This document shows positions 12,926-61,969 of a stretch of DNA of 64,000 nt, in pieces. Made by a program: the position numbers and the translations under genes. Numbering within the stretch: position 1 is the stretch's first letter; each line of letters opens with the position of its first letter. The notes under the pieces were generated by a model. That model was not told the DNA's origin and did no database searches. It was given only the letters and a program-made list of their open reading frames with translations. The stretch lies in NCBI RefSeq assembly GCF_964204645.1, contig NC_134034.1, positions 3,179,814 through 3,243,813 of the forward strand. Reading direction: 5' to 3'. Source of the DNA: Tubulanus polymorphus (taxonomy: Eukaryota; Animalia; Nemertea).

Positions 12926-12985
12926 AGTAATTGGGAAAGTGGGCTTTCAGATCAGAGGTCGAGAGGTCGAGACACCACTCATCAC
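12926..12985 (+). repeat. Left terminal inverted repeat of the Polinton (60 bp)
   Basis: AGTAATTGGGAAAGTGGGCTTTCAG...GAGACACCACTCATCAC; 52/60 identical to the reverse complement of 30010-30069. Confidence 0.85.
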
Positions 12986-13160: not shown

Positions 13161-13265
13161 AATAGATGCTGTGAGGCTTGGGTGAGAACGGTTAATAGCG
13201 CGCTTGTTATATACAGGGGGAAGTAATCCCCACTCATTACCACAAGTAATTTTTTTTCCTTATAA
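13161..13265 (+). promoter_or_regulatory. Repeated upstream module (second copy at 13512-13616) ending CACTCATYACCACAAGTAA-T-tract-CCTWATAAATG
   Basis: ~105-bp near-identical direct repeat in front of two unrelated ORFs. Its 3' 35 bp also precedes polB (29954-29988, minus strand). Confidence 0.75.
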
Positions 13266-13481: not shown

Positions 13482-13616
13482 CTTATCTAGACAGTTATAA
13501 TTACTGCTCCTAATAGATGCTGTGAGGCTTGGGTGAGAACGGTTAATAGCGTTTTTGTTATATACAAGGGGAAGTAATCCCCACTCATCACCACAAGTAA
13601 TTTCTTTTCCTAATAA

Positions 13617-13943: not shown

Positions 13944-14110
13944 ATTTTTAAAAAAATAAATTAATAAAAATAATGAATATCTAGAATCCGAAATGACTTA
14001 TCTGGACAATTTAATTGCTCCGCATAGATGGTGCCATAAACAGCACCCACACAGTGATAGACAAAAGTAGTGAGATATTCAATTATTTTTTTTGCTTTTT
14101 TTCTAAAATA

Positions 14111-14479
14111 TTAATCCATTTTTTTTATTATCAATTTTGGAATTTCAGAAGTACTTTCATTTTTGATAGCAGTTGGTTCAGAATTACTAATATCATGAAT
14201 TTTATTTGATTTCTTATACCAATTACACCCAATCAAAATGAATACAATTACAAATCCAACTGTAAAATATAGATATTTATCAAATATTCTACTATCAGAA
14301 GGAGTAGAAATAACAATATTTTCACCATTTTTATTAACATTTTTATTACTTATTTTTTCTTTTACAGCTTTTTTATATTCTTGTGATTTAATTCCTAATT
14401 GTCGAGACCATTCAATTTGTTTCTGAGTTCTCGGTTTTTTCTTCACAGTTAATTCCTTCACTTCTTTCACTTCGCTCAT
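14111..14479 (-). CDS. Polinton hypothetical protein with basic N-terminus and one TM helix, 122 aa
   Basis: TAAATG start; hydrophobic segment YLYFTVGFVIVFILIGCNW. Confidence 0.8.
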   Translation of the reverse strand: MSEVKEVKELTVKKKPRTQKQIEWSRQLGIKSQEYKKAVKEKISNKNVNKNGENIVISTPSDSRIFDKYLYFTVGFVIVFILIGCNWYKKSNKIHDISNSEPTAIKNESTSEIPKLIIKKMD

Positions 14480-15017
14480 TTATTATAGAAATATTTTTAC
14501 TTTCAATATTTGAAAATGTTATAACCCCGGTTGATAATAATGTCATAAATCCTCCTAATTGAAACGATAAATATCCAATCCATTTATTTAATTCAGTCAT
14601 AACTAAATAATCATTTTTTAAATCGGAATATAATCTATTTTCATCTTCAATTGGTAGTATATAATTACATAATTTACTATAACCTTTTACTACATTTTCT
14701 GATATCGCGTCATTAATTTTAGCTGTTCTCGCGGCTTCATAAATCTTAAATAATCTAATAATTTCATCTGATTTCATTGTATCTAATTCATTATAAGTTA
14801 AATTTTTACCGACAAAATTTTTACATTTTCCAGATGCTATTAATATTTCTAATTGATGTTTACAATAAAGATAATATTCATAATTATTATTTGTTGTAAC
14901 ATTATTTAAAGCACCATCATCTGGAGTTAATTTTGTTTCTGTTATTCCTAAATCATCTAAAGTTTTTTCAATTGGAACATCACCATTTTTAGATTTTATT
15001 TTCTTTTCACCTCCCAT
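14412..15017 (-). CDS. Polinton hypothetical protein with C-terminal hydrophobic segment, 201 aa
   Basis: TAAATG start; open 201 codons; WIGYLSFQLGGFMTLLSTGVITF. Confidence 0.8.
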   Translation of the reverse strand: MGGEKKIKSKNGDVPIEKTLDDLGITETKLTPDDGALNNVTTNNNYEYYLYCKHQLEILIASGKCKNFVGKNLTYNELDTMKSDEIIRLFKIYEAARTAKINDAISENVVKGYSKLCNYILPIEDENRLYSDLKNDYLVMTELNKWIGYLSFQLGGFMTLLSTGVITFSNIESKNISIINERSERSEGINCEEKTENSETN

Positions 15018-15049
15018 TTATAAAACAAATGAAATTGGTTGTGTTGTTG

Positions 15050-15310
15050 CAACTAGAATTCAACTAGAATGTAACTAGAATTCAACTAGATTAACAAGCT
15101 AGTTGAAATATTGTTGTTTTTGTTTATTTCTTGTTAAATGTAGTTGATTTTTGTTCCAACTACTAACAACTAGAATTCAACTAGAATGTAACTAGAATTA
15201 AACTAGATTAACAAGCTAGTTAAAATATTGTTAAATCTATTTGATTTTTGTTACAACTACTAATAACTAGAATTCAACTAGAATTCAACTAGATTAACAA
15301 ACTAATTGAA
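15050..15310. repeat. Internal non-coding repeat region: three blocks of 11-bp AACTAGAATTC-type units with hairpin spacers
   Basis: Blocks at about 15050, 15168 and 15264. The spacer GTAGTTG-ATTTTTGTTC-CAACTAC is a stem-loop. Confidence 0.85.
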
Positions 15311-15311
15311 T

Positions 15312-15920
15312 TTAAATAAATTCATATTTAAATGGGTGTTGTAATCTAAATAGTAATTTTGATCTTTTAATATTTTTCAACTTATCCATATATTCATTAT
15401 GTAAATCATGTGGAATAATAACATTTTCCTCAAGTGCATTTTTCATTGATTTTCTATCTTTATTGTAGAATAAAACTAGAAATCTTATATTCTCTCTAAA
15501 ATCTTTCACAATTGAATTATATTTCTGATTTAAAACCCATGTTGTTATCCCAAAATGTCTCCCAGAGAAAGCTAAATAGCATAACTCACTTTCTCTAACT
15601 TTTGAATCATGTAGATTAGCACAATCATCTATAATGAATAATGTATTTGATCCTTTATAAATATCAATTGCTATTTTAATACAATTATCTAAATTTTCTT
15701 TAACTGTTTTAGGATCTAATATAATAAATTTATTATTTCTAGTAATGTTTCTATCATAAGTTTGATTAAATTCATATGTTGGACAAAATAATACTATATT
15801 ATCAAAATAGTTTTCATAAATAGCTTCTAATAAATTTAATATAAAATAAGTTTTTCCACAATTTGTTACACCAGAAATTAACATATTATGAGGCTCAAAT
15901 ATGAATAATTCCTTATTCAT
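15312..15920 (-). CDS. A32/FtsK-HerA family DNA packaging ATPase, 202 aa
   Basis: Walker A GVTNCGKT, Walker B LFIIDD, and GRH and LNQKY motifs typical of A32-like ATPases. Confidence 0.92.
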   Translation of the reverse strand: MNKELFIFEPHNMLISGVTNCGKTYFILNLLEAIYENYFDNIVLFCPTYEFNQTYDRNITRNNKFIILDPKTVKENLDNCIKIAIDIYKGSNTLFIIDDCANLHDSKVRESELCYLAFSGRHFGITTWVLNQKYNSIVKDFRENIRFLVLFYNKDRKSMKNALEENVIIPHDLHNEYMDKLKNIKRSKLLFRLQHPFKYEFI

Positions 15921-17048
15921 TTATATATTTTTAATTTTACTTGATAATATCCATTCATTAAATTTATCTGGCCATCCAACCCATTTTACTAAAGAATATT
16001 TTTTTCTTTTAATAGTTTTTGTTTTTAATACTTTTTCAATTTTATATTCTTGTTCTAGATTTTCAGTAGTTAAACTTAATTCTTCTTCGTAAAAGTAGCC
16101 ATCAACTTCTTCACCATCTAAATCTTCTAATTTATAGACATATGGTTTTGTATTTATTACCTTTTTTATTTTATATATTTCTCTAGTAAAATTTCGATCG
16201 TATCCTTTGTCAAATATCTTTTTATACTTAGATATTCTAACATTTTGGCCAACTTTAAATTTAGGTTCACCAAAATCATCTACAAGAAATGCTCCATATA
16301 AATTATTCCAAACAATTTCAGCATTTTCAGATTTTCTAGCATCAATAGGTTTCATTCCAATAGAAGAATGATAAGAATTATTATATCCTTCTATCAATTT
16401 TGGTAAAACATCAATCCATTTAAAAGTATTATTTGCTGTAAAATATTTCCACATTCTTGTTCTTAATGTTCTATTAAATCGTTCAACAACTGCTGCTTTT
16501 TTATCTGATTTTGTTGAAAAATATTTAATATTATGATTATCTAAGAGTTCATGAACAAGTGAATTATCAAACTCTTTTCCATCATCAAATTGTATTTTTT
16601 CTGGATTTAGTTTATCATCCGAAAGAAATTTTCTTAAAACATTTGATGTTTGTACAGCATCTTTTCTATAAAGTGGGAAACTCCATACATAACGACTAAA
16701 AATATCAATTATATTCAATAACCACCAATAATCATCATTATCTTTCTTAACATTTTTCATATCAATTAAATCTCCTTGCCACTGTTGATCTACATAACTA
16801 ACCATAGTTTTACGAGTTTTATATTTTCTAACAATTTTTTTATGTGTTGTGTATGTTGGTTGTTCTAACATAAATTCATTTATATCTTTATATTTAACTA
16901 AATTTTGTGGGATTATCTTATCTAATTTATCTTGTTTTACTTTACACCATATATTTTTAGTAGAAGAATAAGCAACCGAACTCTCAGGGTTGTAATATAA
17001 ATTTCTTAAATATTGTTCTTTAGTATTAGGAGTTTTTTTACCACCCAT
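15921..17048 (-). CDS. Retroviral-like (rve, DDE) integrase with C-terminal chromodomain, 375 aa
   Basis: QWQGDLIDM, IIDIFSRY, QFDDGKEF, VVERFNRTLR, YNNSYHSSIGMKP; chromodomain YKIEKVLK...LVKWVGWPDKFNEWI. Confidence 0.95.
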   Translation of the reverse strand: MGGKKTPNTKEQYLRNLYYNPESSVAYSSTKNIWCKVKQDKLDKIIPQNLVKYKDINEFMLEQPTYTTHKKIVRKYKTRKTMVSYVDQQWQGDLIDMKNVKKDNDDYWWLLNIIDIFSRYVWSFPLYRKDAVQTSNVLRKFLSDDKLNPEKIQFDDGKEFDNSLVHELLDNHNIKYFSTKSDKKAAVVERFNRTLRTRMWKYFTANNTFKWIDVLPKLIEGYNNSYHSSIGMKPIDARKSENAEIVWNNLYGAFLVDDFGEPKFKVGQNVRISKYKKIFDKGYDRNFTREIYKIKKVINTKPYVYKLEDLDGEEVDGYFYEEELSLTTENLEQEYKIEKVLKTKTIKRKKYSLVKWVGWPDKFNEWILSSKIKNI

Positions 17049-17078
17049 TTATATATCCTTAATTTTAACTTTATATTT

Positions 17079-18326
17079 CTAATATTGAATACTATCTAAT
17101 TGTGAATTTACAATATTTAATTGCGCGTCAGATATAATATAAATGTGCATTTTAAAATTTTTGATTCCTTTATTCTTTGTCATGAATAATTGTATTCCAT
17201 CTTTAGTGTTTTGTAGTTTTTTTCCAGAACCATGTAATGAATTATCTTCTGTTGTTCTAAAATCTAACCATAATGCATATTTATTACCGGTATAATAATC
17301 AATTTGATTAATATTACAATTTTCAAATGATTTTACTTTTTCATTCATAAAATGTTTTCTAATTTCTGGCCATTGATCAATCATTCTCATTCCTTGGCAA
17401 AATATTGTATTCGCTATTCCTTCGATAGTTATTTCTACTTTTGTTATTTCAGGATTATAATAATTGTCAACATTTATTGCGCCATTAGTATACGTTCCAA
17501 TGGTAAAAAATATTAATATACCTTTAATAGATCTTCTAGGAAAGTTAATATTCTCATTAATTATTTCATCATTTGCATTAATAGTTACAGTTTTAAATTT
17601 ATCAATATAATCATATAATAATGAAAACCCTTGATTGTATTGAGTTTGAATTATACTTGAAATATTTTCATCAGTTACTGTATCATATTCTAAACATATA
17701 TTCGATAATTTATAACTCATATCTTTAACAACGCTAGATAATACAATTTCATTTACAGGAGCAAATGTTATCTCAAATATAATATCTTCTTGAATTGCGT
17801 ATTTATATAAAGGTGCATTATTATTTATCAATTCAAAGTCTAATGGAATTTTATATTTGCTTCCATAAATCTTTTTAATCAAATTATCTACGCCATTATT
17901 TACTACTGCGTTATTGGCTTCAGATCTTAATTTATTTTGGTTTTCTGATTGAATTCCTTGAAATATCATATTATTTCTATTTTCTTTAGTTAACCATAAA
18001 TCTTTATAATGTGAAAATAAATTATAATCATCTAATGAGAAAACTGTTTCCGGACCAATCTTTATTGTTAATTTTTTAATCAAATATCTTCCAACATTAT
18101 CAACAACATAATTATTATTATTACCGATTACTTTTATATCAGCTGATAAATAAATACTGTTTGGAACATAAAAAGTATTTTGTGTTAATCTAGGAATTCT
18201 AACATATAAAGTTTCATCGGGATTAATATTTGAAGGGTTATGAGTAATTATATGATGTGATCTTTCTGCTTTAATAGCATTAGATATTCTATGATTCTTC
18301 GAAGGACTTATATAACTCCCACTCAT
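17079..18326 (-). CDS. Major capsid protein (double jelly-roll, hexon-like), 415 aa
   Basis: Size, beta-rich pattern, motifs LSNICLEYD and LWLDFRTTEDNSLHGSG, and position among virion genes. Confidence 0.8.
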   Translation of the reverse strand: MSGSYISPSKNHRISNAIKAERSHHIITHNPSNINPDETLYVRIPRLTQNTFYVPNSIYLSADIKVIGNNNNYVVDNVGRYLIKKLTIKIGPETVFSLDDYNLFSHYKDLWLTKENRNNMIFQGIQSENQNKLRSEANNAVVNNGVDNLIKKIYGSKYKIPLDFELINNNAPLYKYAIQEDIIFEITFAPVNEIVLSSVVKDMSYKLSNICLEYDTVTDENISSIIQTQYNQGFSLLYDYIDKFKTVTINANDEIINENINFPRRSIKGILIFFTIGTYTNGAINVDNYYNPEITKVEITIEGIANTIFCQGMRMIDQWPEIRKHFMNEKVKSFENCNINQIDYYTGNKYALWLDFRTTEDNSLHGSGKKLQNTKDGIQLFMTKNKGIKNFKMHIYIISDAQLNIVNSQLDSIQY

Positions 18327-18346
18327 TTATTTAACAAAAAAATTAA

Positions 18347-19786
18347 TTATTTATTTTTTGATATCATATTTACTAAACCAAAAATAATAGCACTTACAAC
18401 TGTAATTAAAAATAAAATAATATGTTCAGCAGCAAAGTTAAGAATATTCCCAGCAGATTTCAATATAAAACCAACAATTGATGCAATAACTCCTGGCAAT
18501 GCTGCAGCAGATTTTTTAGATAGTTCCCATAAATATTTTGCTAATTTCTTTAAACCATCCTTAACTTTATCTTGTACAGAATTATTACCTGGAGGTTTAT
18601 CTGGTTTATTGGGAGTGGGAGTAGGAGTAGATTTCAAAACATTTGATATTGCTAAACCAATTGTTGTAAATACCATAGTTACAGCTGTTAGAATTGAAAG
18701 AATTGTTATTCCTTCTAATTTAAATAATAACTTCATCCTGTCTTTTAATGATATTTCAGAATTTGGTTTAATCAACAAATCTTTAAAAATAACTTTTAAT
18801 CTATTAATATTATAATCATATGATTTTAACAATAATTTAATTTCTTCTTTTTGTAATTCTATGTTATATTCTAAATCATCTTTTTCTTTTTCTAAACGTA
18901 ATTCTTTTTGCCTATATTCTATTTCATCAATTACTTGATGATCTAAATCAGACTTTAATTGTTCTATTTCTTTATTTTTATCAGTTAATTCTTTTTCTAA
19001 AGTTCTAATTTTAAAATCTCTTATACTTTTATTATGTGCAATTTTATCAGATGCAAGTCTTATACTAATAATTTCTCTAATTGCTTTATCAGAAAATATA
19101 TCTAAATCTTCTAATTCTTGATCTGTTGCATCAAGTAATCCATTCGGTAAAAGTTTTTCAATTGGAACTTTATTTGATTTAAGTTTACTATTTTTGGAAG
19201 TTATATTCTGTTCAGAAGTTGTTTCTGTTTCTGATTTCTTTTTGATTATTTCAAATAATTCATTAATTCTTTGTTTAAATACATCTATATTATCATCTAT
19301 TTCTTTTTGTGTAACATCAGTTATTTCATTACTATTACTTATTATTTTAATTCTATCTGGTTTTAATTTTTCTAAAGTTGATTCTGATAATATTTTATTT
19401 TTATTATTTTTATAAGTGATATCAATATAATAATCACCTTTCAAACGATAATAACATTTACCATTATCTAAAAATTTTAATTGATCTGCTAAAAGTCCAA
19501 CGTCTTCATCATTTATGTTAAAATTAGATTTTTCAATTAAATCTTCTAATTTAGGTATTTTGTTTAAATTATCTAAATCTTGTTTTACTAAATCTGGGTC
19601 AAAATTTTCAGGATTTAATTGTGATTCAGCATTTTTAATATAATCAGGCATATTTAAATTATTGTTATATTCTGGTTCATTACCATCATTAAAACTTGTT
19701 TCATCAAAATCAGGTGGTTGTTCATCAGTTATATCAGGTTCATCAAAAGGATCCATTCCAATATCTTCTCCACCTTCTACATCCAT
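18347..19786 (-). CDS. Polinton protein with acidic N-terminus, coiled coil and C-terminal membrane or amphipathic helices, 479 aa
   Basis: Heptad-rich middle region; hydrophobic GITILSILTAVTMVFTTIGLAI and ALPGVIASIVGFIL...IILFLITVVSAIIFGLV. Confidence 0.85.
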   Translation of the reverse strand: MDVEGGEDIGMDPFDEPDITDEQPPDFDETSFNDGNEPEYNNNLNMPDYIKNAESQLNPENFDPDLVKQDLDNLNKIPKLEDLIEKSNFNINDEDVGLLADQLKFLDNGKCYYRLKGDYYIDITYKNNKNKILSESTLEKLKPDRIKIISNSNEITDVTQKEIDDNIDVFKQRINELFEIIKKKSETETTSEQNITSKNSKLKSNKVPIEKLLPNGLLDATDQELEDLDIFSDKAIREIISIRLASDKIAHNKSIRDFKIRTLEKELTDKNKEIEQLKSDLDHQVIDEIEYRQKELRLEKEKDDLEYNIELQKEEIKLLLKSYDYNINRLKVIFKDLLIKPNSEISLKDRMKLLFKLEGITILSILTAVTMVFTTIGLAISNVLKSTPTPTPNKPDKPPGNNSVQDKVKDGLKKLAKYLWELSKKSAAALPGVIASIVGFILKSAGNILNFAAEHIILFLITVVSAIIFGLVNMISKNK

Positions 19787-19802
19787 TTATATAATAAAAA
19801 AA

Positions 19803-21192
19803 TTAAAATTTAAGATATAATATTCCTCCTATAACAATTCCTATACAAGTTATAGCTAATTTAGTATTTTCATGGGATTTATTATCATCATTTAGTTTAA
19901 TTATATCATGTTGAATTTTATCAGTTTTTATATCTTCTGATGTATTGTAATCTTTTATTTTAGAATCATTATTTAATTTAATATTATTAGTTTTAGTTTC
20001 TGTTGATTGAATATGTTTTTTATTTTTTTCACCTTCCATTAATTTTAGAGCAGTAATAATCTTTTTATTTATATCATTCAATCCAAATGAATTATTTATT
20101 GTTGCAGTTTTAATTAGATTATTATAACCAATTATATTTCCCATCTTTAATACTAAATCATTAGAAATAATTAATAGATTAGGGCCTATACAATAATTAA
20201 GTCTTACATGAGATTTATCTAAATAATTTTGATATCTTATAATGTTTTCTGGAATCGATCTATTTTTATCATCATGTATGGAATCTTCAAATAATACTTT
20301 AAATTGTTTTTGTGTATCGAATGATGTATTCAAATTTCCAATTATCGGTGATCTTGTTTCAACTTGCGCACCTAGAATACAAATCAAATAAATTCTAATA
20401 GATTGATTTATTCTTTCTATACCTGATTAAGTAAAACCTTCACTATTTTCTAAAATAAAAAAAAACCCAACCATTATTGTTTTCTTGTTTTAAATGATCA
20501 TAAAATTTCGGCAATTTATTGAAATTTAATGTTTCTAAATCCTTAGTTTCTATTTTACCATAACCTAATTTATTATTATAGATATTATAAAAACTATTAG
20601 ATGGTATGGGAAGTGCACAATATTCTGCAATCTTTTTAGGGCAAGGAAGTGATCTTATTGTTCCAATTTTTGTTCTAAAATCAGAATTATTTATATCTAT
20701 ATTAAATTCATTACAAATCTTATAAAACTTTGATAAATTAATATTATTATCTAATTCTTTGAAATACCTAGATCCTGGTAAAGCGCACTCTAATTCATTT
20801 AATATTATTCTGATTTGAAAGTATGTATGAAATCTAAATAAACTTTGAATTAATTTATATTTAGAATTATTCAAATGATCATTCCAACTAATTCCACATC
20901 CTGTTGTTGCACAATAAACAGCAAAATTTAATTGATTCTGCCAATACTTCATATTAGATTTTAATAACCATTGTTTTTCATCTTTCAATTTTTTAAAATT
21001 AATTAAATATACATGAAATATATTTTCCATCTTTGCATTAAAATTATTAGTTTCAGTAACATAAATTTCTAAATTAGTTAATGAATCTAAAACTTCATTT
21101 CTATATGTAATATCTTTATTAAAATCTATTGCTGGAATATTATATTTAATTGATTTATTATATTGGAAAGCTTTTGGAAAACTATCTACCAT
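19803..21192 (-). pseudogene. Single ~460-codon Polinton gene (C-terminal TM) broken by a frameshift and a stop; appears as ORFs 20443-21192 and 19803-20387
   Basis: Removing one T from the T9 run (20457-20465) gives GWVFFILENSEGFT*SGIERINQSIRIYLICILGAQVETRS, continuous with the downstream ORF. In-frame TAA at 20427-20429. Only the upstream part has a TAAATG start. Confidence 0.8.
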
Positions 21193-21209
21193 TTATATAT
21201 TTAAAAAAA

Positions 21210-21644
21210 TTAATAATTTATTAATTCTTTTAATAATTTATCTTGTTCTTCAACTGTTATATGACCATTTAAACTTATTATATAATCTAGTGTGTTCTTT
21301 AATTTATTAATTTCTTTTATATTAGATTTTATTTTTTCTTTATTACTTTTTATATTTAATTTTGAACTTATACCAGTTAAAACACTTGAACTTAATCCTA
21401 ATACACCAATTGATATAGCTAAAGGTGTTAATGGGCTGAATATTGCTAGAAATGTTATTACAGAACTAATTGTAACCGAACCACTTATAATCAAATAATA
21501 TATAATTTTACTTTTTAAATATTTTTTCTTTTTTATCTTTAAGTCACTTTCAAATTCTTATATTTGTTTTTCTAAATATGTTTTTAATTTAGTTTTATTT
21601 ATATCATGAGGAATAATATCAATACTATCAACTTTATCTTCCAT
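21210..21644 (-). pseudogene. Polinton membrane protein (144 codons) with a premature stop at codon 29
   Basis: TAAATG start at 21644 (MEDKVDSIDI...), TAA at 21558-21560, then the same frame continues into ORF 21210-21494 with two hydrophobic segments. Confidence 0.8.
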
Positions 21645-21663
21645 TTATTTAGAATAAAAATTA

Positions 21664-22086
21664 CTAATTAGTAAATTTATAAGCAACAAATATAACAATA
21701 ACTGTTCCACCTAAAATCCATATTATTTCATATTTCTGTTGTTCTTTACTTGGGGTATAATAATCTGATAATTTAGGTTTGTATAGATGTAATTTTTCTT
21801 TATTTGTTACTGCGTTATATAAACTCATTGCATCATCAACTGATTGAAAATCTCTATGTGAAATCTTCTGATCATATAATTCTTTATTGATGTAATCCAT
21901 ATAGTTTTGTCTCTTTTTTCTATATTCTTCTGCAGCTTTATTGTATTTCTCTAACGCTAAGTTATGTCTTCTTTGTTCTCCTAATGAACTATTTTTATCA
22001 ATATGTTTAAATAAATAACCACCACCAGTAAATGCTAAAGCGTTAACAATTGCCGATCCTATAATAGTTATAATTGCAGAAGCCAT
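21664..22086 (-). CDS. Polinton protein with hydrophobic N- and C-termini, 140 aa
   Basis: TAAATG start; MASAIITIIGSAIVNALAFTGGGYLF ... IIWILGGTVIVIFVAY. Confidence 0.85.
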   Translation of the reverse strand: MASAIITIIGSAIVNALAFTGGGYLFKHIDKNSSLGEQRRHNLALEKYNKAAEEYRKKRQNYMDYINKELYDQKISHRDFQSVDDAMSLYNAVTNKEKLHLYKPKLSDYYTPSKEQQKYEIIWILGGTVIVIFVAYKFTN

Positions 22087-22111
22087 TTATTTAACAAAAA
22101 AAATTACACAT

Positions 22112-22333
22112 TTATATGGGAGGAATATATTTTTGTTTTTCCAAATAATCAATTGTTAAATTAGATAAAGTAACCGCTAATGTTAATTTCAAAATATCAT
22201 TGATATCAAATCTATCAACATTAACATTTCCCATTTTGAATACTTTTTTTAATACCATTGAATAACCAACCGTTCCAACTGATAGTAAGGCACCATTATA
22301 TAATCCAGTTATTATCCACTTATTATCACTCAT
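22112..22333 (-). CDS. Polinton small hydrophobic protein, 73 aa
   Basis: TAAATG start fused to the upstream stop codon. Confidence 0.8.
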   Translation of the reverse strand: MSDNKWIITGLYNGALLSVGTVGYSMVLKKVFKMGNVNVDRFDINDILKLTLAVTLSNLTIDYLEKQKYIPPI

Positions 22334-22693
22334 TTATTTATCAAAAAAATTACTATCTTCAAAATATTTAGTTAACTTATTTATGATTAATTCAACATGT
22401 ATTTTATTACTAGTTTTATGATTATCATATATTTTGGATAATATGTTTTTAATATCATCGATGATAAAATCTTCATCTAATTCATAAAATCTTAAAGATT
22501 CTCTAATTAAATTAGTAATCTTTTCTACATTTAAAGTTTCTTTATCAATTGTTGTTTCATACTCAAATGTTGTTTCATTAGAAAATGCAATATTTTTGAT
22601 ATGTGTTATTACATCATTAATGTTAAATTTCATTTCTTTCTCACGTTTAAAATCAAACCCAAAACATATACTCGGTCCAACAGTTATATTCAT
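22334..22693 (-). CDS. Polinton hypothetical protein, 119 aa
   Basis: TAAATG start; tiles exactly between its neighbours. Confidence 0.75.
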   Translation of the reverse strand: MNITVGPSICFGFDFKREKEMKFNINDVITHIKNIAFSNETTFEYETTIDKETLNVEKITNLIRESLRFYELDEDFIIDDIKNILSKIYDNHKTSNKIHVELIINKLTKYFEDSNFFDK

Positions 22694-22709
22694 TTATATA
22701 GGTGAAAAA

Positions 22710-23507
22710 TTACTCTTTACATCTTATAACTAATTCATAAATTACAGGAAAGTTATTCAAATCAATTAAGTATCCATTATGATTTCTTATTTCTAATTTA
22801 AAATTATTAAATTGAGGAATACAAGGTTTGAAATCACATTCAGCTAAATTATAATTTATTTGCGTTCCAAATTGTTTAACATTCTTCAATGGTAAAATGT
22901 TTAATATACTAGAATTACATGTTGTATCTTTAGTTGCTTCGAATGTTTTTGTAGGATCGATTAAATTGCAATAAATATAAAAGTGTGTAAAAGGTATTAT
23001 ATTTGAGTTACCGTGTTTGTTTCCACCAAATTGATTTGGAGTAATTCCTAATAGTTTAGCTATAGGTTTTTTTACCGTGTAAGTATGTCTTCTTGACATC
23101 AATACACTAGATTTATCAAGTTTAATAAGTTCATCATCAAACTTTATTTTAATTTTATTAGAGCTCTCACTTTTTATGAATTTAATATTAAATTTAGAAT
23201 TACCATTACCTAATCTAATCCGAGCTTTTCTATTAATTTCTTGCTCTAATGTTTCTAAATCATATAATCCTGGTGTAAGCATAAGTTGAATCCATTTTTT
23301 TTCAAGTTTATCAAAAATAAGAAGGCTTCTATGTTCATCAGTTTTATCCGATATATTATAAAAAGAATTACATAAACTTATATTTACTAATTTTAAATCT
23401 ACACAATTCTTAAATTCTCTATCTAATTGTACTAATAAATTATGTGATTTATAATTTGTAAGTCTTCTAGAATCAACAAATATTCTGTATTCTTTTAATT
23501 CTACCAT
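22710..23507 (-). CDS. Minor capsid protein (penton-like single jelly-roll), 265 aa
   Basis: Motifs NSFYNIS, PGLYDLETL, FYIYCNLI, ILNILPL and LEIRNHNGYLIDLNNFPVIYEL follow the Polinton/NCLDV penton pattern. Confidence 0.75.
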   Translation of the reverse strand: MVELKEYRIFVDSRRLTNYKSHNLLVQLDREFKNCVDLKLVNISLCNSFYNISDKTDEHRSLLIFDKLEKKWIQLMLTPGLYDLETLEQEINRKARIRLGNGNSKFNIKFIKSESSNKIKIKFDDELIKLDKSSVLMSRRHTYTVKKPIAKLLGITPNQFGGNKHGNSNIIPFTHFYIYCNLIDPTKTFEATKDTTCNSSILNILPLKNVKQFGTQINYNLAECDFKPCIPQFNNFKLEIRNHNGYLIDLNNFPVIYELVIRCKE

Positions 23508-23575
23508 TATTTATAACATAAAAAAATTACCGCTCATCACTAAAAATTAATTTTAAAAAAATTTTTCCTTTATAA

Positions 23576-24892
23576 ATGGATGAGAAGATAGCATGCGAAA
23601 TTTGTGGTGAACTTCTAAGAAAAAGTAATATGGCTCGACATATGAAAAAACATGATGAAAATTATAAACCCCCTAAAATAAACTGCCCAAAATGTAATAA
23701 ATTATTCTCAAGAAATTATGTTAAAAAACATTCAGAGAAGTGTAGAATTAATGGCGCAACGGCTAATGTTGATAGTAACGAAAGTAATAGTAATTCTGTT
23801 GAAGTTGAACCTGAAATTATTTGGAAAAGACCTTTCTTATTCTATGATAAGGATAATATAAAAGATCATTTCTGTGAGCCATGTCGAATAAAATATAACC
23901 CTGAAAATATAGAAGATTGGGAGAATCATCAATTTCGTAAAGTACATATAGATAAAATTTCTAATAAATTTGAAACTGAATTCAATGAAAGAAAAAATAA
24001 TTTATTAGAAAAAATAAAATATGAGAAAACGTTACCAGATAATGAAGAAACAGTTGAAAAGTTAGAAAAACAATATAATGAATTAACAAGAAAAACATAT
24101 TATTGTAAATATTGTAAATTGATTATTACAACAAGTAATTCAAATCTACATAATAGAACAATAAAACATAAAGAAAACGTAAGAAAATACCAAGAGCTTA
24201 ATGAAGATCTATTACCAAGCTATGATAGAAAAAAATGCCCACAATGTATTTATGAGTACTTAAGACAAGAAGGTCCTGTGATATTTTGTAATGAATGTGG
24301 ATGGCAAAAGAATTTATTGGGTGAAGAAAAAACTAGAGATTTTCTCATAGATCCAAAATTAAATTATCTTGATGAAATTTTTAAAATATTTTCTATAGAA
24401 GATCATACACCAGAATATATGCAATGGCTTGAAAAAATGAAAATAATAGAAAATGAAATTGGTGAAATAACTAAAAAAGATATTATAAAAACAATTATTC
24501 CACCAACATTTAACACAAAACAAAAGAAAATGTATTTATATTTATTATTTAACGATTATTATGAAAAACCTAAATTAACAGAAGAAGATATGAAAAATAT
24601 AAAAAAAATATTCAAACAAATATTAATGTATCATTTGGAAAATAGAATAACAGATTCAATAAATTATGAATTCTTTTTAAATAAGATTGTAAATTATTTA
24701 AACCTAGATATTATAATTCCATTTGACGAATTAACAAACAAAAAGAAACAAAGAGAGCGAGATGAAATGTGGAACAAGATAGAACTTTATTTAAATGAGA
24801 AAAATGGAATGGAAGAAGAACCTGAACAATTAAATGAAAATGAAGAAGCCAATAATGATTTCGAGTTTGATGATATTGATTTTATGTTTTAA
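23576..24892 (+). CDS. Zinc-finger protein with C-terminal VLTF3-like (poxvirus A2 / NCLDV late transcription factor 3) region, 438 aa
   Basis: N-terminal C2H2 and matrin-like fingers; zinc ribbon CPQC-x13-CNECG; C-terminal INYEFFLNKIVNYL...KKQRERDEMWNKI resembling the VLTF3 signature. Confidence 0.65.
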   Translation: MDEKIACEICGELLRKSNMARHMKKHDENYKPPKINCPKCNKLFSRNYVKKHSEKCRINGATANVDSNESNSNSVEVEPEIIWKRPFLFYDKDNIKDHFCEPCRIKYNPENIEDWENHQFRKVHIDKISNKFETEFNERKNNLLEKIKYEKTLPDNEETVEKLEKQYNELTRKTYYCKYCKLIITTSNSNLHNRTIKHKENVRKYQELNEDLLPSYDRKKCPQCIYEYLRQEGPVIFCNECGWQKNLLGEEKTRDFLIDPKLNYLDEIFKIFSIEDHTPEYMQWLEKMKIIENEIGEITKKDIIKTIIPPTFNTKQKKMYLYLLFNDYYEKPKLTEEDMKNIKKIFKQILMYHLENRITDSINYEFFLNKIVNYLNLDIIIPFDELTNKKKQRERDEMWNKIELYLNEKNGMEEEPEQLNENEEANNDFEFDDIDFMF

Positions 24893-27800
24893 TGGCCATA
24901 AGGTAATGTTTTTATTCCATCATCTAAAATATGCCTTTTATCATCAAATGGATTTAAACTAGTTTTTTCAACTTCATTAATGTACATCTCATGATCTTCT
25001 GATCTTAAACAATTCATTTTGTGTTTCATTACAATTGATTTATATAAACACTTTATATAATCTTGAAATTCTATATGTTTATCAACCACATGTTTTGTTA
25101 TTCCTTTTAACTTTTTAGCTTCATGATCTTTTGTTCTGTAACTATACATCTTACTTCTTATCCCAACAAATTCAATCATTTCATCACCTCCTAATTCATC
25201 TTTAAATTTACCAGGAATCTTTTTATTATCATTGCTAAATAGTTCATGATCTTTGGGATAATTGCTAAAATCAAAATGATGTTTTAATGTTTTTAAGTCT
25301 TTTGTTATGTCATTTGTCTTGATTTTTAGTATGTAGGCGTCAGTATTTTTTTGGATTAATGGGAACCCAGAATTGAATGTTCCATCATCTGTTGATAAAT
25401 CATAAACATAATCAGTTGGGTTATATATTTCAAATAAATCTTTAACTTCTTCAGTTAAATCTTTTTCTACATGCCTTAAATTAAAACAATTTGGTTTAGA
25501 TTTAATCAACCCAATATTCATATTGAAGCCTAATGAATTACATAATATATTCAATCCTGATATAGCAACTTTTCCTTTCTGTGCAAAGGTTATCGTTTTA
25601 TCCTTTGTAAATTTTTTAGTGCCATCTGCGGCATAGAATCCAATGAAGAACCATTTTCTTAAATTATTTTTTGCATTTAATACATAATCTGGTACTATCT
25701 TTTCTTTAGTTGAAGTATTACTTTTCACTATTGCATGAATATAGAATTCATCATTATATTTTATAGCAAAATCTTTAGGATTATTTACAAATATTCTATA
25801 AACCGCGGATGATTTCATATGGTCCATGATTCTAAATGATTCTAATAGTGAATAAACTTCTTCGCAAAATTTCTTTATTCTTTCTAATAATTTCAAATCT
25901 TGATTGCATAAATACCAACGATATTGAGTGCGATTAACATAATTATACACACCTGCTGAACCATCACCCATGAAAAATCCTTTGATAAAATATTCTTTTT
26001 CTTCTAATGTTTCGGGTTCTATATTATAAATATTATCAATAATTTCATCAAATGACATATGATTCATTCTTTGGAAAAATCTTTTATGTAATAATTCATC
26101 TCCAATTTTTATATCAGTTGGTTTTATTTCATCACCATTTCGTTTAATTAAACTGTGGTCTTCAGTAACATCTACAAACCCTAATTTAGTTCTAACTCTA
26201 TAGATTTTCTTATTTGTTTTATGTCTAATAATATTCTTTAATTTTTTCCATCCATTTCTTGTCCAAACATCCATTAAACCATTTATTTGTATTAATTCTT
26301 TTTCTTTTTGAAATATAACATTCATTTTGATTAGGAATTATTTCTGAAATTCTTCTCACCAATATTTTATTATTACATTTTAATAATATTGGGGTGTCAG
26401 CTGTTACAGAATCAAAATATAATATTTCTATATGTTTTTCTCCAAAAAGTGGTTGTAAAACATTATAATAAAAATCATACATTAATAATTTTGATACTTC
26501 TAAAACAGTCGAACCAATAAATATAGGTTTATTAAATTTCATTGATGTTCTTTTTAATTTAACTGCTGTTAAATAATCTTCAAATCTTTTATTTCCTAAA
26601 TGTCTAGGACTTGATTGTAAATGTCTTAATCTTTCAGAATTATTTACTAATTCAATATCATTTCTATTTCTAATATTTTCACATGTTTTACCATAAAAAC
26701 TATTGTTCATTAATTTAAAGAAATCTTTTTCAAAATCTGTTTTTGATATGGTTCTCTGTTGAGTATTGAAATCTATATATTTTTCTAACCACTTCGATTG
26801 ATTAAATTCAATATATCTATGTACTTTCTTTAATTTCATTCCTTGTTTTAGATAAAATTTTAACATTCTATAATGAACAATATAATTGTATTTATTATTT
26901 TGAGTAAGTATTAATTTTTCTGTAAAAACATGATCTTTCGGTTTTATTTTCTTCTGGTATTCACTTAAATAACTATCATCTACAGTTAAATGTTCTGGGC
27001 AATAAGGTAAGTTTCTTGTTTTAAACTTTATATTTTCAGGATATTCTAAATCAACTACAAAGAAATAACCAATTGGTGCTTCATCTTTTAAACTAATAAT
27101 TGCGTTTTCCCAATCAGTTTTATCACCATTTTCAACTTCTGTTAATATAAAATTTTTATATGGTTGAGGTTGCATCATTGCCCAACCATATAAATTATTG
27201 GCGTCAATATATAATAATTTATATTCATCATTTGCTTTAAAATACCTATCTCCCATAACACCACTAATTCCACCTCTAATTGATTTTTCAAATAATAAAA
27301 CCATATCTGGTTCTTTTAATAAATCTAATTCTACATTTGTATATTTTAAACCACATTGCCAGGTTAAACCAGGACTAGAGTAGCAATAACAAGGATCAAC
27401 ATTAAAATGATTCAAATTAACTTCTCTAAATTTTTCAAATATGTCAGCTAATATCATAACATCTGATTTTAAATATAAATCAACTAATTCACCATGATTT
27501 TTCATATTAAAATGGTTCCAAATATTTAATGTTCTATCAAAAACTTCGTCTTTCACATACTCCTCTTTTAATTTATCATAAAATTGATCTTTTAATAATT
27601 CTGTTACATTAAAATCATCGTGTGTTTTATAAAATGAGTAAGGAATTGCGCCTTTATATCTCAATAATTTAAAATCTTGGTCATTTGGATAATAATATCG
27701 AGTTATAACAAAATCATTATCAACTAAACTTTTTGATAAATTATCTAATGAACTTGCTAGAAATCTATAAGAATCTAAAAATCTAATGCAACCAAATTGA

Positions 27801-29953
27801 AATGAAATATAATTTTCAGATGTTTTAGCTAATTGTTTAAAATCATATTTTCTTACATTTGCTTCATTCATAGCATTATATTCTTCTATTTCTTGATTAA
27901 TTGCACCCAATTTTCCTGATAATTGTTTTATAAATAGATGGGTATCATATCCTGATAAATTATGAAATAATATTGGTACAAAATTTACTTTTTTAGCTTG
28001 TAAATTGCAATCTTCATGAGCAGCTCCACGATATTTTGAATTTAAATGATTATGATCTCTAACTCTTTTATCAAATGAATAAAAACGTTTTTCACAATAA
28101 CAACAATGAGTTGCATAATTGAAATCAATTTCATCTTCTTTTGTCATAACTATTCGTTTATTTTTGTTTAATAATTTTGCAAAATCACTTTCTAATTCAA
28201 TCATTTTATCACAAAAATCATTAACTACATTTTCACCTCTAAAAGAAATATATTGACTTTCATATAATTCGGGATAATTTGATTTTATATAAATTCCATA
28301 AGCAGCAGCTCTTTGATGAACTTTTTTAATTGTATTTATAATTGGTGGGTCTTGTATTGTGTCTTCATTTAATTCATTTCCTTTATCCATTGATTTTAAT
28401 AATTGCTTTTTGTTATATATTTCTTTTCTATCTTGATCAGTTAATTCTTTATTCAACGATTCAAAATCCCCATAAATTACAAATGGAACAATATTTTTAA
28501 ATTTATGATTAGTAAATTTCAATTTATAATCTTTTTCTGTTGGCATTATTAATTTACAAAAATCTTTATTATCACATAATTCTTTATGTTTTAATAATGT
28601 ATTCTCAGTCATAAATTTAGATAAACATTTTCTACATAGATAAATTTTATTATGATGATCACTTTCTGTTCTAAAGAATAAATCAATTTGTTTTAACCAC
28701 ATATAATGTTCATTTTCATCTTTTTTATAATATAACAAATCTATAGCATTTTCATTATCATAATATTCTGTTAAATATAAAGCTTCCAATGTATAATCTT
28801 TAATATTTTCACCTTTTGTCTTTGGTAATTGCATTAATTCGAATACATTTATTTTTAAATTATTAACTTTTTCTATTTTAGGAATCATTTTTATAGTTAC
28901 TGGATATTGATCAATTTTATATAATGTTTCATATTTCCGGTAATCTGTTATTCTATAAACATGTTCTTCTGTTGGATGTAAGCAACTAATAATTGACCAT
29001 AGAAAACATTTATTATCTTCATTTTGAACATTTATTACTGCTTTTGTTGTAAATGGTAATTTAATATAAGATGATGCTTTAATATCCTTTTCTGTTGTAA
29101 AGTTTGAATCATTTTTAAACATTTTATTACTTTTTGATGTTTTATTCCTTTTTGTATTATAAACATTTAAATCTAAATATATAATTTCATTCAATGTTAA
29201 GCCAGAACCCTCAAAATATCTTTCTTCAATATGACGTTTAAATTCATTTAATATTTTTTCTAACTTCTCTTTTATTTGTGTTTTTGAAATTATTTCTTCA
29301 GAGAGTGTTTGAATATTATAATTCATTTTTTCTTCTGACTTTATAAAACTTACTTTCCCAGAGATACTAATTTTTGGATATTCAACATCTGTTATCAAAT
29401 CTAGTATTTTTTCTATTATTTCATTAAATTTACTATAATCTTCTATTGTTGTACCTTTAAAAAATCTAAATATAATAGCTGCAGGACCAATTTTACTATG
29501 TAATGTTTCTAAGATTTCAATTGTATCTTTTATTTCTAGTGAATCAATATAATTTCTAACATTTTCCATGTAAGGTTTATTTGAAATGGATTTAGTTTTT
29601 GAAGTTGATTCTTTTACTTGTTGTGGTTTATCATCAAAATAATCTATTCCTAAAACATTATTTCTCAAATTTTGATGGTGTTTTTCTGTTTCGAGATGTC
29701 TATTATAATTCCTTTTTGTTATAAATTCATCACAAACTTCACATTTTATTTCATTCACATTCATATTTTCTAATCGTTCTTTTCTTTCATTGGAATTTTC
29801 TGGAGTTTCAAAATCTATTACATTTTTTATATGATTTGCAGTTTTTTCATGTCGTGTTTTATTAGATGTATCGATGTATTTTTTACAATATTGACAATAA
29901 TATTGATTTTTATTGACATTATTGTTTTCTAGTTGGTGTTCATTCTCCCCCAT
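24889..29953 (-). CDS. polB: Protein-primed family B DNA polymerase containing an intein; split by one frameshift into ORFs 26225-29953 and 24889-26325. Repaired precursor ~1687 aa, spliced product ~1332 aa
   Basis: Exo motifs YGDFES, FHNLSGYD and YLKSDV. Endonuclease VII/HNH-like insert CCYC...RDHNH...GAAHEDCN. Pol motifs YIDANNLYGWAM and KLMNNSFYGK; split motif C YFD//TDA; GKFKDE, KMYS, KLKGI. Confidence 0.93.
25345..26410 (-). mobile_element. Intein with LAGLIDADG homing endonuclease (~355 aa) in PolB motif C
   Basis: Block A SVTADTPILL, block B VDVTEDHSL, LAGLIDADG blocks FIKGFFMGDGS and FFIGFYAADGT, block F YVYDLSTDDGTF, block G LIQKN followed by +1 Thr. Excision restores ILYFDTDAY. Confidence 0.92.
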
Positions 29954-30009: not shown

Positions 30010-30069
30010 GTGATGAGTGGTGTCTCGTCCTCTCGTTCTCTGGCCTGAAAGCCTACTTTTCTAATTACT
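30010..30069 (-). repeat. Right terminal inverted repeat of the Polinton (60 bp)
   Basis: Reverse complement AGTAATTAGAAAAGTAGGCTTTCAG...GAGACACCACTCATCAC. Confidence 0.85.
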
Positions 30070-30804
30070 ACAATTCTAAACTGTTCCTAAGAAATTATAG
30101 AAAGCAACTTTGTGCTTGATTTTATCATACAGTTATTCGAACTTAAATTATTGTTTTTGGAATATTTCAGAAAATAACTGGCTTATTAAATGATTATATC
30201 TTAATCAAGCTGTTATCATAGTTTACTTTGATTGCATTTTGTCTGTTTAAGGGTTGACTGTGAGCATATTATTTTCTTTATTGCATTTCTCTTCTTTTCC
30301 TTTCTCTTTTGTTTTATACAAACTATTCCTTAGCTTCTACAGGCCCCTCCAGGTCTAATTTACTGTATTTTGTATTATGCTCTGTACACTATGCTGTAAA
30401 TTATATTTGAAAAATAAAGTGTTCAAGTGTGATCATTGGAAAATTGATCTACAGCCATGAACATTAAATCATCAAAACAGCGAGTGTGCAAACATAAATT
30501 TAATCCTTAATCCTAGTAATCCTGCCGTGGAAATATCCAGTGTTTTCATGCATGAAACAACCTGAAGCGAATCTCTTTATCACATACTGTGCTGAAAAAA
30601 GTCAACACTTTTCATTCAAAAATTCATTTTTGAGGGTCATTCAAAATATGAGAACTGTTGAATTTTTTTAGACGGCCGGCAGTGAACGTGTAAAAGTTGA
30701 GTGTCTACTCTATGTTGGACCTTATCTTAATCATTGTTGACCCTGTTAATCTGTGATTCCGTTTGTTTTTAGATTCAACGTTAGGCTGATTTTTGAACGC
30801 CGCG

Positions 30805-33072
30805 ATGAGTTCTTCACAACGCCGCGAAGAATCGACCGTCCACCAGGGGGCGAAGCTGTTCGAGTGCGAGTTCTGTGAAAAGAGTTTCAGCTGGAAGTGG
30901 AATCTACGACAACACAGACTCCGCATACACGACCGCGTGCATCGGTTTAAATGCGATCACTGCGGTAAAACATTCTGTGCCAAAGAAGAGTTAAAACATC
31001 ACATGTCTGCCGTTCATTTGAAATTAAAGCCGCACCAGTGCGCCATCTGTGAGAAACGTTACGTAAAAATTACCACTTTGAAAACACATGTCAAGATTGT
31101 GCACGAAGGCGTTCGGGCGTTTCAATGCGAAATCTGCCTCCAGACGTTTGGACAAAAAGGTAGTTTAAAGCAACACATGAACGTTCATAAGGAGGCGAAG
31201 CCGTTCCAGTGCGACATTTGTAAACGGGGGTTCAGTCGGAAAAATGGCCTGCAGTACCATCTAATGACAAACCACGACAGCAGCGTGCGTCCGTTTGAAT
31301 GCGATCACTGCGATGAAACATTCACCAGAATACGAGACTTAAAAAATCACACGTCTTTCGTTCATCTGGAACTAAAACCGCACCAGTGCGCCACCTGTCA
31401 GAAACATTTCGTTAATAAATTGGATCTGAAAAGACACATTGACGCTGTACACAAAGGCATCAGACCGTATGAATGCGAAATCTGTCAGCGGGCATTTAAA
31501 CGAAAATCTCAATTAAATCTACACGTGACGCTCATCCACCAGGGGGCGTCGCCTTACCAGTGCGAGATTTGTCGTAAACCGTTCATTGATCAATTTAATT
31601 TGAAGAGACATGTCAAATTCGTCCATGAAGGCGTTCAACCGTACACGTGTGCAATCTGTCAGCAGACGTTTGGGCAAGAGGTAAGTCTAAACCGGCACGT
31701 GGCAACCTTCCACCAGGGGGCGAAGCCGTACCAGTGCGAGATTTGTGAAGCGCGTTTTGCTCTGCGAAGTAACCTGAAGTACCATATAGAGACCATACAC
31801 GACGGTGTGGGTCCGTTTAAATGTGATCACTGCGATAAAACATTCACCAGAAAGGCAACGCTGAAAGATCATACATCTGCGGTTCATCTGAAAAAGCCGC
31901 ACCAGTGCGCCATGTGTGAGAAACATTTCATAGGAATTACCAGTTTGAAAACACATGTCAAGATTGTGCACGAAGGCGTTCGGGCGTTTCAATGCGAAAT
32001 CTGCCTCCGGAAGTTTGGACGAAAAGGTCATTTAAAGCAACACATGACCATTCATAAGGAGGCGAAGCCGTTCCAGTGCGACATTTGTAAACGGGGGTTC
32101 AGTCAGAAAGGTAGCCTGCGGTACCATTTAAAGACCATGCACGGCGGTGTGGGTCTGTTTAAATGTGATCACTGTGATAAAACATTCACCAGAGAGGCAA
32201 CGCTGAAAGATCATATATCTGCGGTTCATCTGAAATCAACGCCGCACAAGTGCGCCACCTGTCAGGAAAGATTCACAACAAAATCGTCGTTGAAAGTTCA
32301 TTTAGAGAGCGTGCATAAACACAGACCGCGTCGTTGTAAAATCCGTCAGCAGACGTTCAAAACAAAGAATACCGGTACTCCAAATGAGCAGGTGTTAGCA
32401 ATTCATTCCACCAGGGGCGCTAGTCATTCTAGTCTTTCATCGTCATCAGCAACGTTTAATTGTGAAATATGTGAGAAATCATGCGGAACAAAAGACAGTC
32501 TGGCGATACACGTGTCTTCCAAACATCCTAAAGAGGGCGCTGAAAGGAGATTTCGGTGTAAATTCTGTTCGAAAAGTTATTCGCACAAGGCTTCGCTGAA
32601 TCAACATGTGAAAAAAACTCATCATCGGTTTGAAAAAGACTCGGTGACGGCGGAGGAGACAGGTTTAGAAATTGAAGAGGAGACAAACGAGGTAAATACA
32701 GACTCTGAGATGTTCGACACAGATTTAGAGGTAAAATCCGATTCCGAGACTGAGGAGGAGATCGAGGATGTGAAAACTGAGGAGACAAAGACGGTAAATG
32801 CCGTTTGTCAGTCAGATAAGGTGACAAAGGGGGTAAATACAGGTTCTGGAACAGATGAGACAAACGAGGTGAACACCGATTCTAAGAAGGTCGGCACAGA
32901 TTCACTTGTTGAGTCCGATTCCGACACTGAGGAGGGAACAGAATCTGAGGCAGATTTTAAGGAAGAGGAAAATGTGAATCCGATAAAAAAGATGAAATAC
33001 GACAAATCATTCGCGTGGCAACACTACGCAGTGTGTTCTGGGAGAATATGGATTTTTGTAGACGATGAATAA
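30805..33072 (+). CDS. Multi-C2H2 zinc-finger protein with acidic tail, paralog 1
   Basis: About 19-20 CxxC-x12-Hxxx(x)H units in a single coding exon. First ATG is at 30805; the ORF track starts at a TTG. Confidence 0.9.
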   Translation: MSSSQRREESTVHQGAKLFECEFCEKSFSWKWNLRQHRLRIHDRVHRFKCDHCGKTFCAKEELKHHMSAVHLKLKPHQCAICEKRYVKITTLKTHVKIVHEGVRAFQCEICLQTFGQKGSLKQHMNVHKEAKPFQCDICKRGFSRKNGLQYHLMTNHDSSVRPFECDHCDETFTRIRDLKNHTSFVHLELKPHQCATCQKHFVNKLDLKRHIDAVHKGIRPYECEICQRAFKRKSQLNLHVTLIHQGASPYQCEICRKPFIDQFNLKRHVKFVHEGVQPYTCAICQQTFGQEVSLNRHVATFHQGAKPYQCEICEARFALRSNLKYHIETIHDGVGPFKCDHCDKTFTRKATLKDHTSAVHLKKPHQCAMCEKHFIGITSLKTHVKIVHEGVRAFQCEICLRKFGRKGHLKQHMTIHKEAKPFQCDICKRGFSQKGSLRYHLKTMHGGVGLFKCDHCDKTFTREATLKDHISAVHLKSTPHKCATCQERFTTKSSLKVHLESVHKHRPRRCKIRQQTFKTKNTGTPNEQVLAIHSTRGASHSSLSSSSATFNCEICEKSCGTKDSLAIHVSSKHPKEGAERRFRCKFCSKSYSHKASLNQHVKKTHHRFEKDSVTAEETGLEIEEETNEVNTDSEMFDTDLEVKSDSETEEEIEDVKTEETKTVNAVCQSDKVTKGVNTGSGTDETNEVNTDSKKVGTDSLVESDSDTEEGTESEADFKEEENVNPIKKMKYDKSFAWQHYAVCSGRIWIFVDDE

Positions 33073-56624: not shown

Positions 56625-61969
<5,345 letters not shown>

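What the first reader, a model, noticed from the sequence alone, without database searches (positions are those of the whole stretch)
25345..26410. Full homing-endonuclease intein in the active site of a Polinton protein-primed polymerase inside an animal genome
Seen: motif C is split as ILYFD|S1182...KN|TDAY by ~355 aa containing all splicing blocks (Ser1, TxxH, block F Asp, terminal Asn, +1 Thr) and two LAGLIDADG helices. Established: inteins are essentially unknown in animal nuclear genes, and this YxD/TD site is the one used by inteins of archaeal and giant-virus (e.g. mimivirus) RNA-primed PolBs. Inference: the intein jumped between polymerase subfamilies, probably during co-infection with a nucleocytovirus. 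That makes it a parasite of a parasite able to home among endogenous Polinton copies and to gate replication by protein splicing. I know of no description of this in animal Polintons but cannot search to confirm.
Basis: partly seen in the sequence, partly recalled or inferred. Interest (0 to 1): 0.93.

Follow-up and report, generated by a model that had tools for sequence, protein, structure and literature searches.

The report
Giant-virus intein invading Polinton polymerases
An intein (a predicted self-splicing protein insert with a DNA-cutting domain), likely acquired from giant viruses, sits in the active site of the polymerase of virus-like Polinton elements in what is likely an animal genome, where copies with and without it coexist, suggesting that it still spreads, although the copy in this window is broken.

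Summary
The intein is real. It occupies 26410-25345 (minus strand), splitting pPolB motif C (YFD|…N|TDA) of a ~17-kb Polinton. Ser1, TxxH, block F Asp, Asn, +1 Thr and both LAGLIDADG acidic residues are present. This copy is not full: it is frameshifted about 30 codons in. It is not a one-off. 11 pPolB clusters carry the whole intein at this site and 11 carry part; the closest is 62% identical. These inteins form one clade (100/99), sister to inteins of giant-virus PolB (95/92), whose exteins are about 20% alike at best. One sits in a pPolB of another class. Raw reads with the same species label show about 100 precise empty-site junctions beside intein-plus copies. A second lineage has intact plus and minus alleles with 95-99% identical exteins. 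Best reading: one ancient capture from a nucleocytovirus, then a homing and loss cycle among Polintons. Splicing, cleavage, the animal host and this copy's junctions are inferred, not shown. Five literature searches pairing intein with Polinton names found no description. Verdict: new variant of a known kind (pol-c intein in a new polymerase class), interest 0.78.

The parts
25345..26410 (-). Intein with LAGLIDADG endonuclease in pPolB motif C; frameshifted about 30 codons in
   Evidence: empty-site joint in reads matches these ends exactly
26324..26410 (-). Intein N-terminal piece (block A, Ser1), in frame with the N-extein
   Evidence: HMM of other inteins E=4e-7
25345..26313 (-). Intein main piece after the break: block B (TEDH), endonuclease, blocks F and G, terminal Asn
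25960..25989 (-). First LAGLIDADG helix (block C), acidic residue kept
25621..25650 (-). Second LAGLIDADG helix (block E), acidic residue kept
26411..29953 (-). pPolB N-extein (1181 aa: zinc fingers, exonuclease, motifs A and B, first Asp of motif C)
   Evidence: PF03175 E=1.7e-18; motifs
24889..25344 (-). pPolB C-extein starting with the +1 Thr
   Evidence: 41-59% identical to C-exteins of relatives
12926..12985 (+). Left terminal inverted repeat arm of the Polinton (60 nt, 87%)
30010..30069 (-). Right terminal inverted repeat arm
15921..17048 (-). rve integrase with chromodomain
   Evidence: PF00665 E=4e-10, PF00385 E=8e-4
15312..15920 (-). A32-type packaging ATPase
   Evidence: PF04665 E=7e-13
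17079..18326 (-). Likely double jelly-roll major capsid protein
   Evidence: no Pfam hit; Atlas feature hits 0.97 to clusters with Capsid_N in 14-24% of members, recognition value low: a lead

Best explanation
A pol-c-type intein with a LAGLIDADG endonuclease sits at the catalytic YxD|TD site of Polinton protein-primed polymerases; it was likely captured once, long ago, from a giant-virus PolB and likely persists by homing among Polinton copies. In unbroken copies it would splice out by the class 1 route (Ser1 ester, transfer to the +1 Thr, Asn cyclisation) and restore the DTD motif; the freed endonuclease would cut the empty allele in sister Polintons and be copied in by repair. Loss, decay and target-site change would leave the mixed plus/minus populations seen. 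The window's copy is a decayed, frameshifted member.
For: Shown: all splicing and endonuclease residues in the window and in 11 of 11 whole pPolB inteins examined. 11 whole and 11 partial intein-bearing clusters among 206 pPolB-like representatives (two of the three searches were aimed at the intein, so this is no frequency). Among the 120 nearest exteins only 4 have it, and the four closest (71-83%) are empty. Careful tree of 56 inteins: pPolB clade 100/99, sister to 14 giant-virus PolB inteins 95/92, nested in a wider PolB clade 99/99; three of the sister proteins map at over 99% to IMG/VR GVMAG contigs. Window intein against giant-virus P0014 42.5%, N-extein 20% (E=0.025); against P0005 45%, exteins no hit. 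Run X6: 45 reads with the exact empty joint and 54 more with other codons there; intein depth 0.51 of extein depth. 9 of 11 listed read differences in the intein fall on third codon positions. Cluster of P0184: 7 plus and 6 minus among 15 listed of 136 members, N-exteins 94.6-99.8% identical.
Against: No splicing or cleavage data. This copy is broken. Apart from P0005 the intein tree matches the extein tree, which fits vertical descent with many losses as well as repeated homing. A quick tree gave only 75 for the pPolB clade, with a long-branched group of four DTDG-type PolB inteins beside it. The direction giant virus to Polinton rests on nesting in a midpoint-drawn tree. The AU test for P0005 (p=0.023) used a group named after the tree was seen. 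The third-position count uses 11 rows out of the 40 shown of 606.
Confidence: 0.7

Rival explanations
1. One ancestral gain, then vertical inheritance with repeated precise loss; the endonuclease no longer homes and the intein is only kept because it must splice.
For: Intein and extein trees agree for the main pPolB class; intein and extein identities to the window are similar (62 and 57% for P0001; 50 and 45% for P0184); only 4 of 120 near exteins carry it.
Against: Endonuclease catalytic residues are kept in all 11 whole pPolB inteins examined over 40-60% divergence and none of them is a mini-intein; plus and minus alleles coexist at 95-99% extein identity; at least 6 changes are forced on the extein tree; P0005 needs a transfer.
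Confidence: 0.18
2. The element is not part of an animal chromosome: the contig is a chimera with a free or contaminating virus, or the host is a non-animal eukaryote.
For: Sharp GC step (22-26% inside, 34-52% outside); no clean target-site duplication; junction reads not examined; organism name coded.
Against: The GC steps fall near the inverted repeats. Flanks hold three tandem multi-C2H2 zinc-finger genes and a C69/secernin-like gene with GT-AG introns. Two studies with one species label hold a diverse family of copies, 85-99% alike. Intein-less pPolBs 57-84% identical to intein-bearing P0008/P0009 are named Mytilus proteins.
Confidence: 0.08
3. The intein passed from Polintons to giant viruses, or reached Polintons from a non-NCLDV (phage or bacterial-type) PolB.
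For: FastTree and the quick tree placed four DTDG-type PolB inteins next to the pPolB group.
Against: In the careful tree that group falls far away on a long branch and the pPolB clade is nested among YGD|TDS PolB inteins; the shared GFPL-type C-terminal signature links pPolB and GVMAG inteins.
Confidence: 0.04

Closest known systems
pol-c allele inteins of mimivirus, other Nucleocytoviricota and archaeal PolB (PMC549080)
   Same: Same motif C site, Ser1/Asn/+1 Thr, LAGLIDADG domain, about 350 aa; nearest relatives are GVMAG PolB inteins (38-43%).
   Different: Host is a protein-primed polymerase of an integrating ~17-kb Polinton, not an RNA-primed PolB; site reads YFD/YMD/ASD/YLD|TD.
Inteins in viral-like DNA polymerases on nuclear scaffolds of Klebsormidium, Tetrabaena and a labyrinthulomycete (PMC10710043, section 8)
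   Same: Inteins entering nuclear DNA inside endogenous viral polymerase genes.
   Different: Those are non-animal hosts and single viral-like genes; here a multicopy mobile element with plus and minus alleles in a likely animal.
Homing endonuclease domains inserted in Polinton pPolBs (PMC11161782)
   Same: Nuclease insertions in pPolB, which that paper suggests came from intein invasions.
   Different: No splicing domain is described in the passage read; here a complete intein architecture at the catalytic site.
Polintons/Mavericks, adintoviruses (PMC8502044)
   Same: pPolB, rve integrase, packaging ATPase, likely capsid, inverted repeats.
   Different: 'Intein' does not occur in that paper's main text; no protease gene or clean target-site duplication found here.

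Membership tests
Class 1 intein | Ser/Cys at position 1, block B TxxH, block F Asp, terminal Asn, +1 Ser/Thr/Cys | tested here: met
Class 1 intein | Match to intein splicing-domain profiles | tested here: met
   window piece E=3.3e-6 but below Pfam cut-off; relative P0184 passes both Pfam and TIGR01445 cut-offs
Class 1 intein | Precise insertion against an empty allele | tested here: met
   empty-site joints in reads; empty relatives read YFD-TDS
Class 1 intein | In frame with both exteins | tested here: not met
   this copy is frameshifted; met in 11 relatives
Class 1 intein | Penultimate His (usual, not universal; recalled) | tested here: not met
   Lys here and in several pPolB and giant-virus relatives; His in others
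Class 1 intein | Hint fold by structure | not tested
   no model was made; sequence match to PDB 2cw7 only
Class 1 intein | Protein splicing activity | not testable with these tools
   needs a bench assay
pol-c intein allele | Insertion at YxD|TD of family B polymerase | tested here: met
   against PMC549080
pol-c intein allele | Groups with other inteins of that site | tested here: met
   named mimivirus or archaeal sequences were not in the tree
LAGLIDADG homing endonuclease | Two LAGLIDADG helices with acidic residues and block D Lys | tested here: met
LAGLIDADG homing endonuclease | Cleaves the empty allele | not testable with these tools
   needs a bench assay
Polinton/Maverick | pPolB, rve integrase, packaging ATPase | tested here: met
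Polinton/Maverick | Major capsid protein | tested here: inconclusive
   Atlas lead only
Polinton/Maverick | Terminal inverted repeats | tested here: met
   60 nt at 87%, short
Polinton/Maverick | 6-bp target-site duplication (recalled) | tested here: inconclusive
   by eye, best candidate 4 of 6
Polinton/Maverick | Adenovirus-type maturation protease | tested here: not met
   no Pfam hit among the element's ORFs of 100 aa or more; shorter or divergent genes not excluded

The most novel reading that the evidence does not exclude
Animal germlines host an active, self-splicing homing intein family: captured from giant viruses by a helper-dependent Polinton, it now drives through endogenous Polinton populations in several invertebrate lineages, has crossed between the two pPolB classes, and selects for escape changes at the polymerase's catalytic motif.
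Probability: 0.45. Interest if true: 0.88.

Novelty: new variant of a known kind. Interest (0 to 1): 0.78.

Why it matters
The survey of eukaryotic inteins lists fungal and protist nuclei, algal plastids and four NCLDV families, and no animal nuclear inteins in the passages read (PMC5784728). An intein family in multicopy Polintons would be a route for protein splicing and homing inside animal nuclei. It is also molecular evidence that Polintons and giant viruses have exchanged DNA, which bears on the open question of whether animal Polintons are virophage-like. Plus and minus alleles in one genome make the homing cycle directly testable at copy level, and show how a homing endonuclease adapts across very distant polymerase targets.

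Tried and rejected
No whole genome is held for this window, so copies could not be counted. Single-protein scans of viral contigs found no close relative. No RNA holder listed: no evidence on expression. Run X5 (marine metagenome) had only 13 small pieces: not used. Five runs with the same species label held next to none of the words: no proof of absence. The idea that the intein donor is the element's present helper was tested through start motifs and not supported. A PDB search with the flanking methyltransferase found nothing at 1e-8. The 266-aa ORF (22710-23510), a possible penton, stayed unassigned (Atlas unreachable). The NCLDV order of the sister group was not determined; L087's gene set looks Imitervirales-like to me (recalled). 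Earlier-finding look-ups for an intein in Polintons returned nothing.

Full report
Observation. The window holds an AT-rich block (22-26% GC against 34-52% outside) bounded by 60-nt inverted arms at 12926-12985 and 30010-30069. It encodes an rve integrase, an A32 ATPase and a PF03175 polymerase and a likely capsid protein (a lead). This is a Polinton. Its pPolB runs 29953 to 24889 on the minus strand in two ORFs. Motif C is split: ILYFD, then an insert from Ser at 26410 to Asn at 25345, then TDAY. The insert has block B TEDH, block F VYD, two LAGLIDADG helices with their acidic residues and the block D Lys. It hits Pfam Intein_splicing (E=3.3e-6, below cut-off), LAGLIDADG_3 and the PI-PkoII intein structure. 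An HMM of 144 inteins from other loci matches the downstream piece at 1e-91 and block A in the upstream frame at 4e-7.

Host context. The flanks carry three tandem multi-C2H2 zinc-finger genes and a gene with GT-AG introns whose first exon weakly matches C69 dipeptidases (E=0.013); I recognise it as secernin-like from memory. An animal host is likely, not proven. No clean target-site duplication is visible, and reads over the junctions were not examined.

Plus and minus copies. Four runs of study P1 hold over half of the stretch's words, all labelled organism A; P1 may be the source of the assembly. Run X6, from another sample and study with the same label, gave 7948 laid reads, most 85-99% alike, so the family is multicopy and diverse. 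In X6, 45 reads (31 start places) skip exactly 25345-26410 and 54 reads (36 starts) do so with other codons for T-D-S; depth in the intein is 0.51 of the exteins (9 and 16 bins). Reads of other copies differ in length at the break, so unbroken copies may exist in the species; I did not examine this further. Of the 11 differences listed inside the main intein piece 9 are at third codon positions, against 6 of 8 in the C-extein (only 40 of 606 rows were shown).

A family, not a one-off. The intein search (226 hits, 120 listed) put a 1693-aa unbroken pPolB first (P0001, 62%), then further pPolBs, then RNA-primed PolBs. Over, 11 of 206 pPolB-like representatives hold the whole intein at this site and 11 a part. 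The 50%-level search added one more fragment at 76% (P0430). Of the 120 nearest exteins 4 have it. In the cluster of P0184 (15 of 136 members listed, contigs of 57 kb to 1 Mb) 7 have an unbroken intein, 6 are empty and 2 are fragments; the last 500 N-extein residues are 94.6-98.8% identical between minus members and P0184. All 6 empty members differ from the plus members at the motif itself (YTD-CDS, YFD-TDA, YGD-TDA against YMD..TDS), which fits either escape from cleavage or co-conversion of flanks (inference). Intein-bearing P0008 and P0009 are 57-84% identical to intein-less proteins named Mytilus, and one intein-bearing fragment comes from a bin named for a lucinid clam symbiont, so bivalve Polintons are likely carriers.

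Origin. In the careful tree of 56 inteins (a chosen subset; fragments, near-duplicates and long-branched P0111 left out) the 10 pPolB inteins are one side of a branch at 100/99, sister to 14 PolB inteins with the same GFPL-type end at 95/92, inside a wider PolB group at 99/99. Three sister proteins match IMG/VR giant-virus MAG contigs at over 99%. Faster trees were weaker: 75 for the clade, with four long-branched DTDG-type inteins beside it. The window intein is 42.5% identical to P0014 while its N-extein reaches 20% (E=0.025); it is 45% identical to P0005, whose exteins give no hit. P0005 is a very distant pPolB (branch 4.4), perhaps the other class of PMC8502044 (not tested), yet its intein is nested (97/91; AU p=0.023 with a group named afterwards). 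For the rest, intein and extein trees agree, while the plus/minus label needs at least 6 changes on the extein tree (38 rows). One old capture, one later cross-class move and continued gain and loss explain this best.

Where could transfer occur? 12 of 15 ORFs of the element start with TAAATG, mostly after a T-run, against 50 of 669 ATGs in the element (P about 1e-11). I recall this as the poxvirus late-promoter motif. An earlier unchecked note (e1-8580207) reports the like in another genome, and PLVs associated with entomopoxviruses are described (PMC11296320, listing and passages). This suggests replication beside a large DNA virus, where an intein could be picked up. But the sister giant-virus loci lack the motif (14 of 158 starts), so the donor was probably not the present helper.

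Mechanism, shown and inferred. Shown: architecture, site, empty alleles, kept catalytic residues, tree discordance. From established intein biology: splicing restores the catalytic DTD, so an unspliced polymerase is inactive, and the endonuclease drives gene conversion of empty alleles. Inferred: that both activities work here, that homing goes on among endogenous copies or during episomal replication, and the direction of transfer. Conditional control of replication by splicing has no support yet.

Literature. Five searches paired 'intein' with polinton (18 papers, 15 listed), adintovirus, maverick and protein-primed, pPolB and Preplasmivir; a sixth with metazoan and endogenous viral gave 0. 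Passages read: PMC11071308 and PMC11161782 only suggest that nuclease insertions in pPolB come from intein invasions; PMC12220804, PMC13768754, PMC5718144 and PMC4104785 mention inteins in other contexts; PMC8502044, PMC11296320 and 10.64898/2026.10.13.758929 have no 'intein' in the main text; PMC5784728 and PMC7765530 list no animal nuclear inteins in the passages shown; PMC549080, two of three parts read, defines the pol-c site; PMC10710043, section 8, reports inteins in viral-like polymerases on algal and protist scaffolds. Other listed papers were seen as listings only. Supplements, subscription journals and Repbase were not seen and could hold a prior note.

Verdict. A real intein of a known allele in a new class of host polymerase and, likely, in animal nuclear DNA; broken here, unbroken and polymorphic in relatives. 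New variant of a known kind, interest 0.78.

Noticed in passing
window 13617-29953, upstream of the element's ORFs: 12 of 15 ORFs begin TAAATG, most after an AGTAATTTTT-like run; resembles poxvirus late promoters (recalled) and suggests a helper virus.
   Followed up: partly
P0006, P0079, P0080, P0082, P0088-P0091, P0098: The same intein family also sits in type II topoisomerases at a D|TD site (and a GD|SA site); six of them form one clade (99) inside the PolB inteins.
   Followed up: partly
P0162-P0280: 37 of 119 near pPolB exteins have Cys instead of Thr after the insertion point (YMD-CDS), possibly escape alleles.
   Followed up: no
P0001 residues 1178-1184: Its flank reads IYGD, the giant-virus form of the site, while its nearest empty relatives read YMD, YLD or YQD; possibly a co-conversion relic.
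   Followed up: no
P0092, P0094, P0102, P0104: Related inteins in PolBs with a DTDG motif, not assigned to a host.
   Followed up: partly
window 23576-24892 +: 438-aa zinc-finger ORF convergent with pPolB whose start region resembles the pPolB N-terminus (inverted match 24072-24118 and 29882-29928; both hit zf-U1).
   Followed up: no
window 13100-13624: A block of about 100 nt with the start motif is repeated (near 13163 and 13513); the first copy precedes a short ORF remnant.
   Followed up: no
window 30790-33072, 43796-45559, 48790-50721: Three tandem paralogous single-ORF C2H2 zinc-finger genes; one begins about 700 nt from the right end of the element.
   Followed up: no
window 11678-12529 -: Intronless HemK-like methyltransferase next to the left end of the element.
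   Followed up: partly
window 56625-61969 -: Secernin-like C69 gene with GT-AG introns, one intron filled by a tandem repeat.
   Followed up: partly
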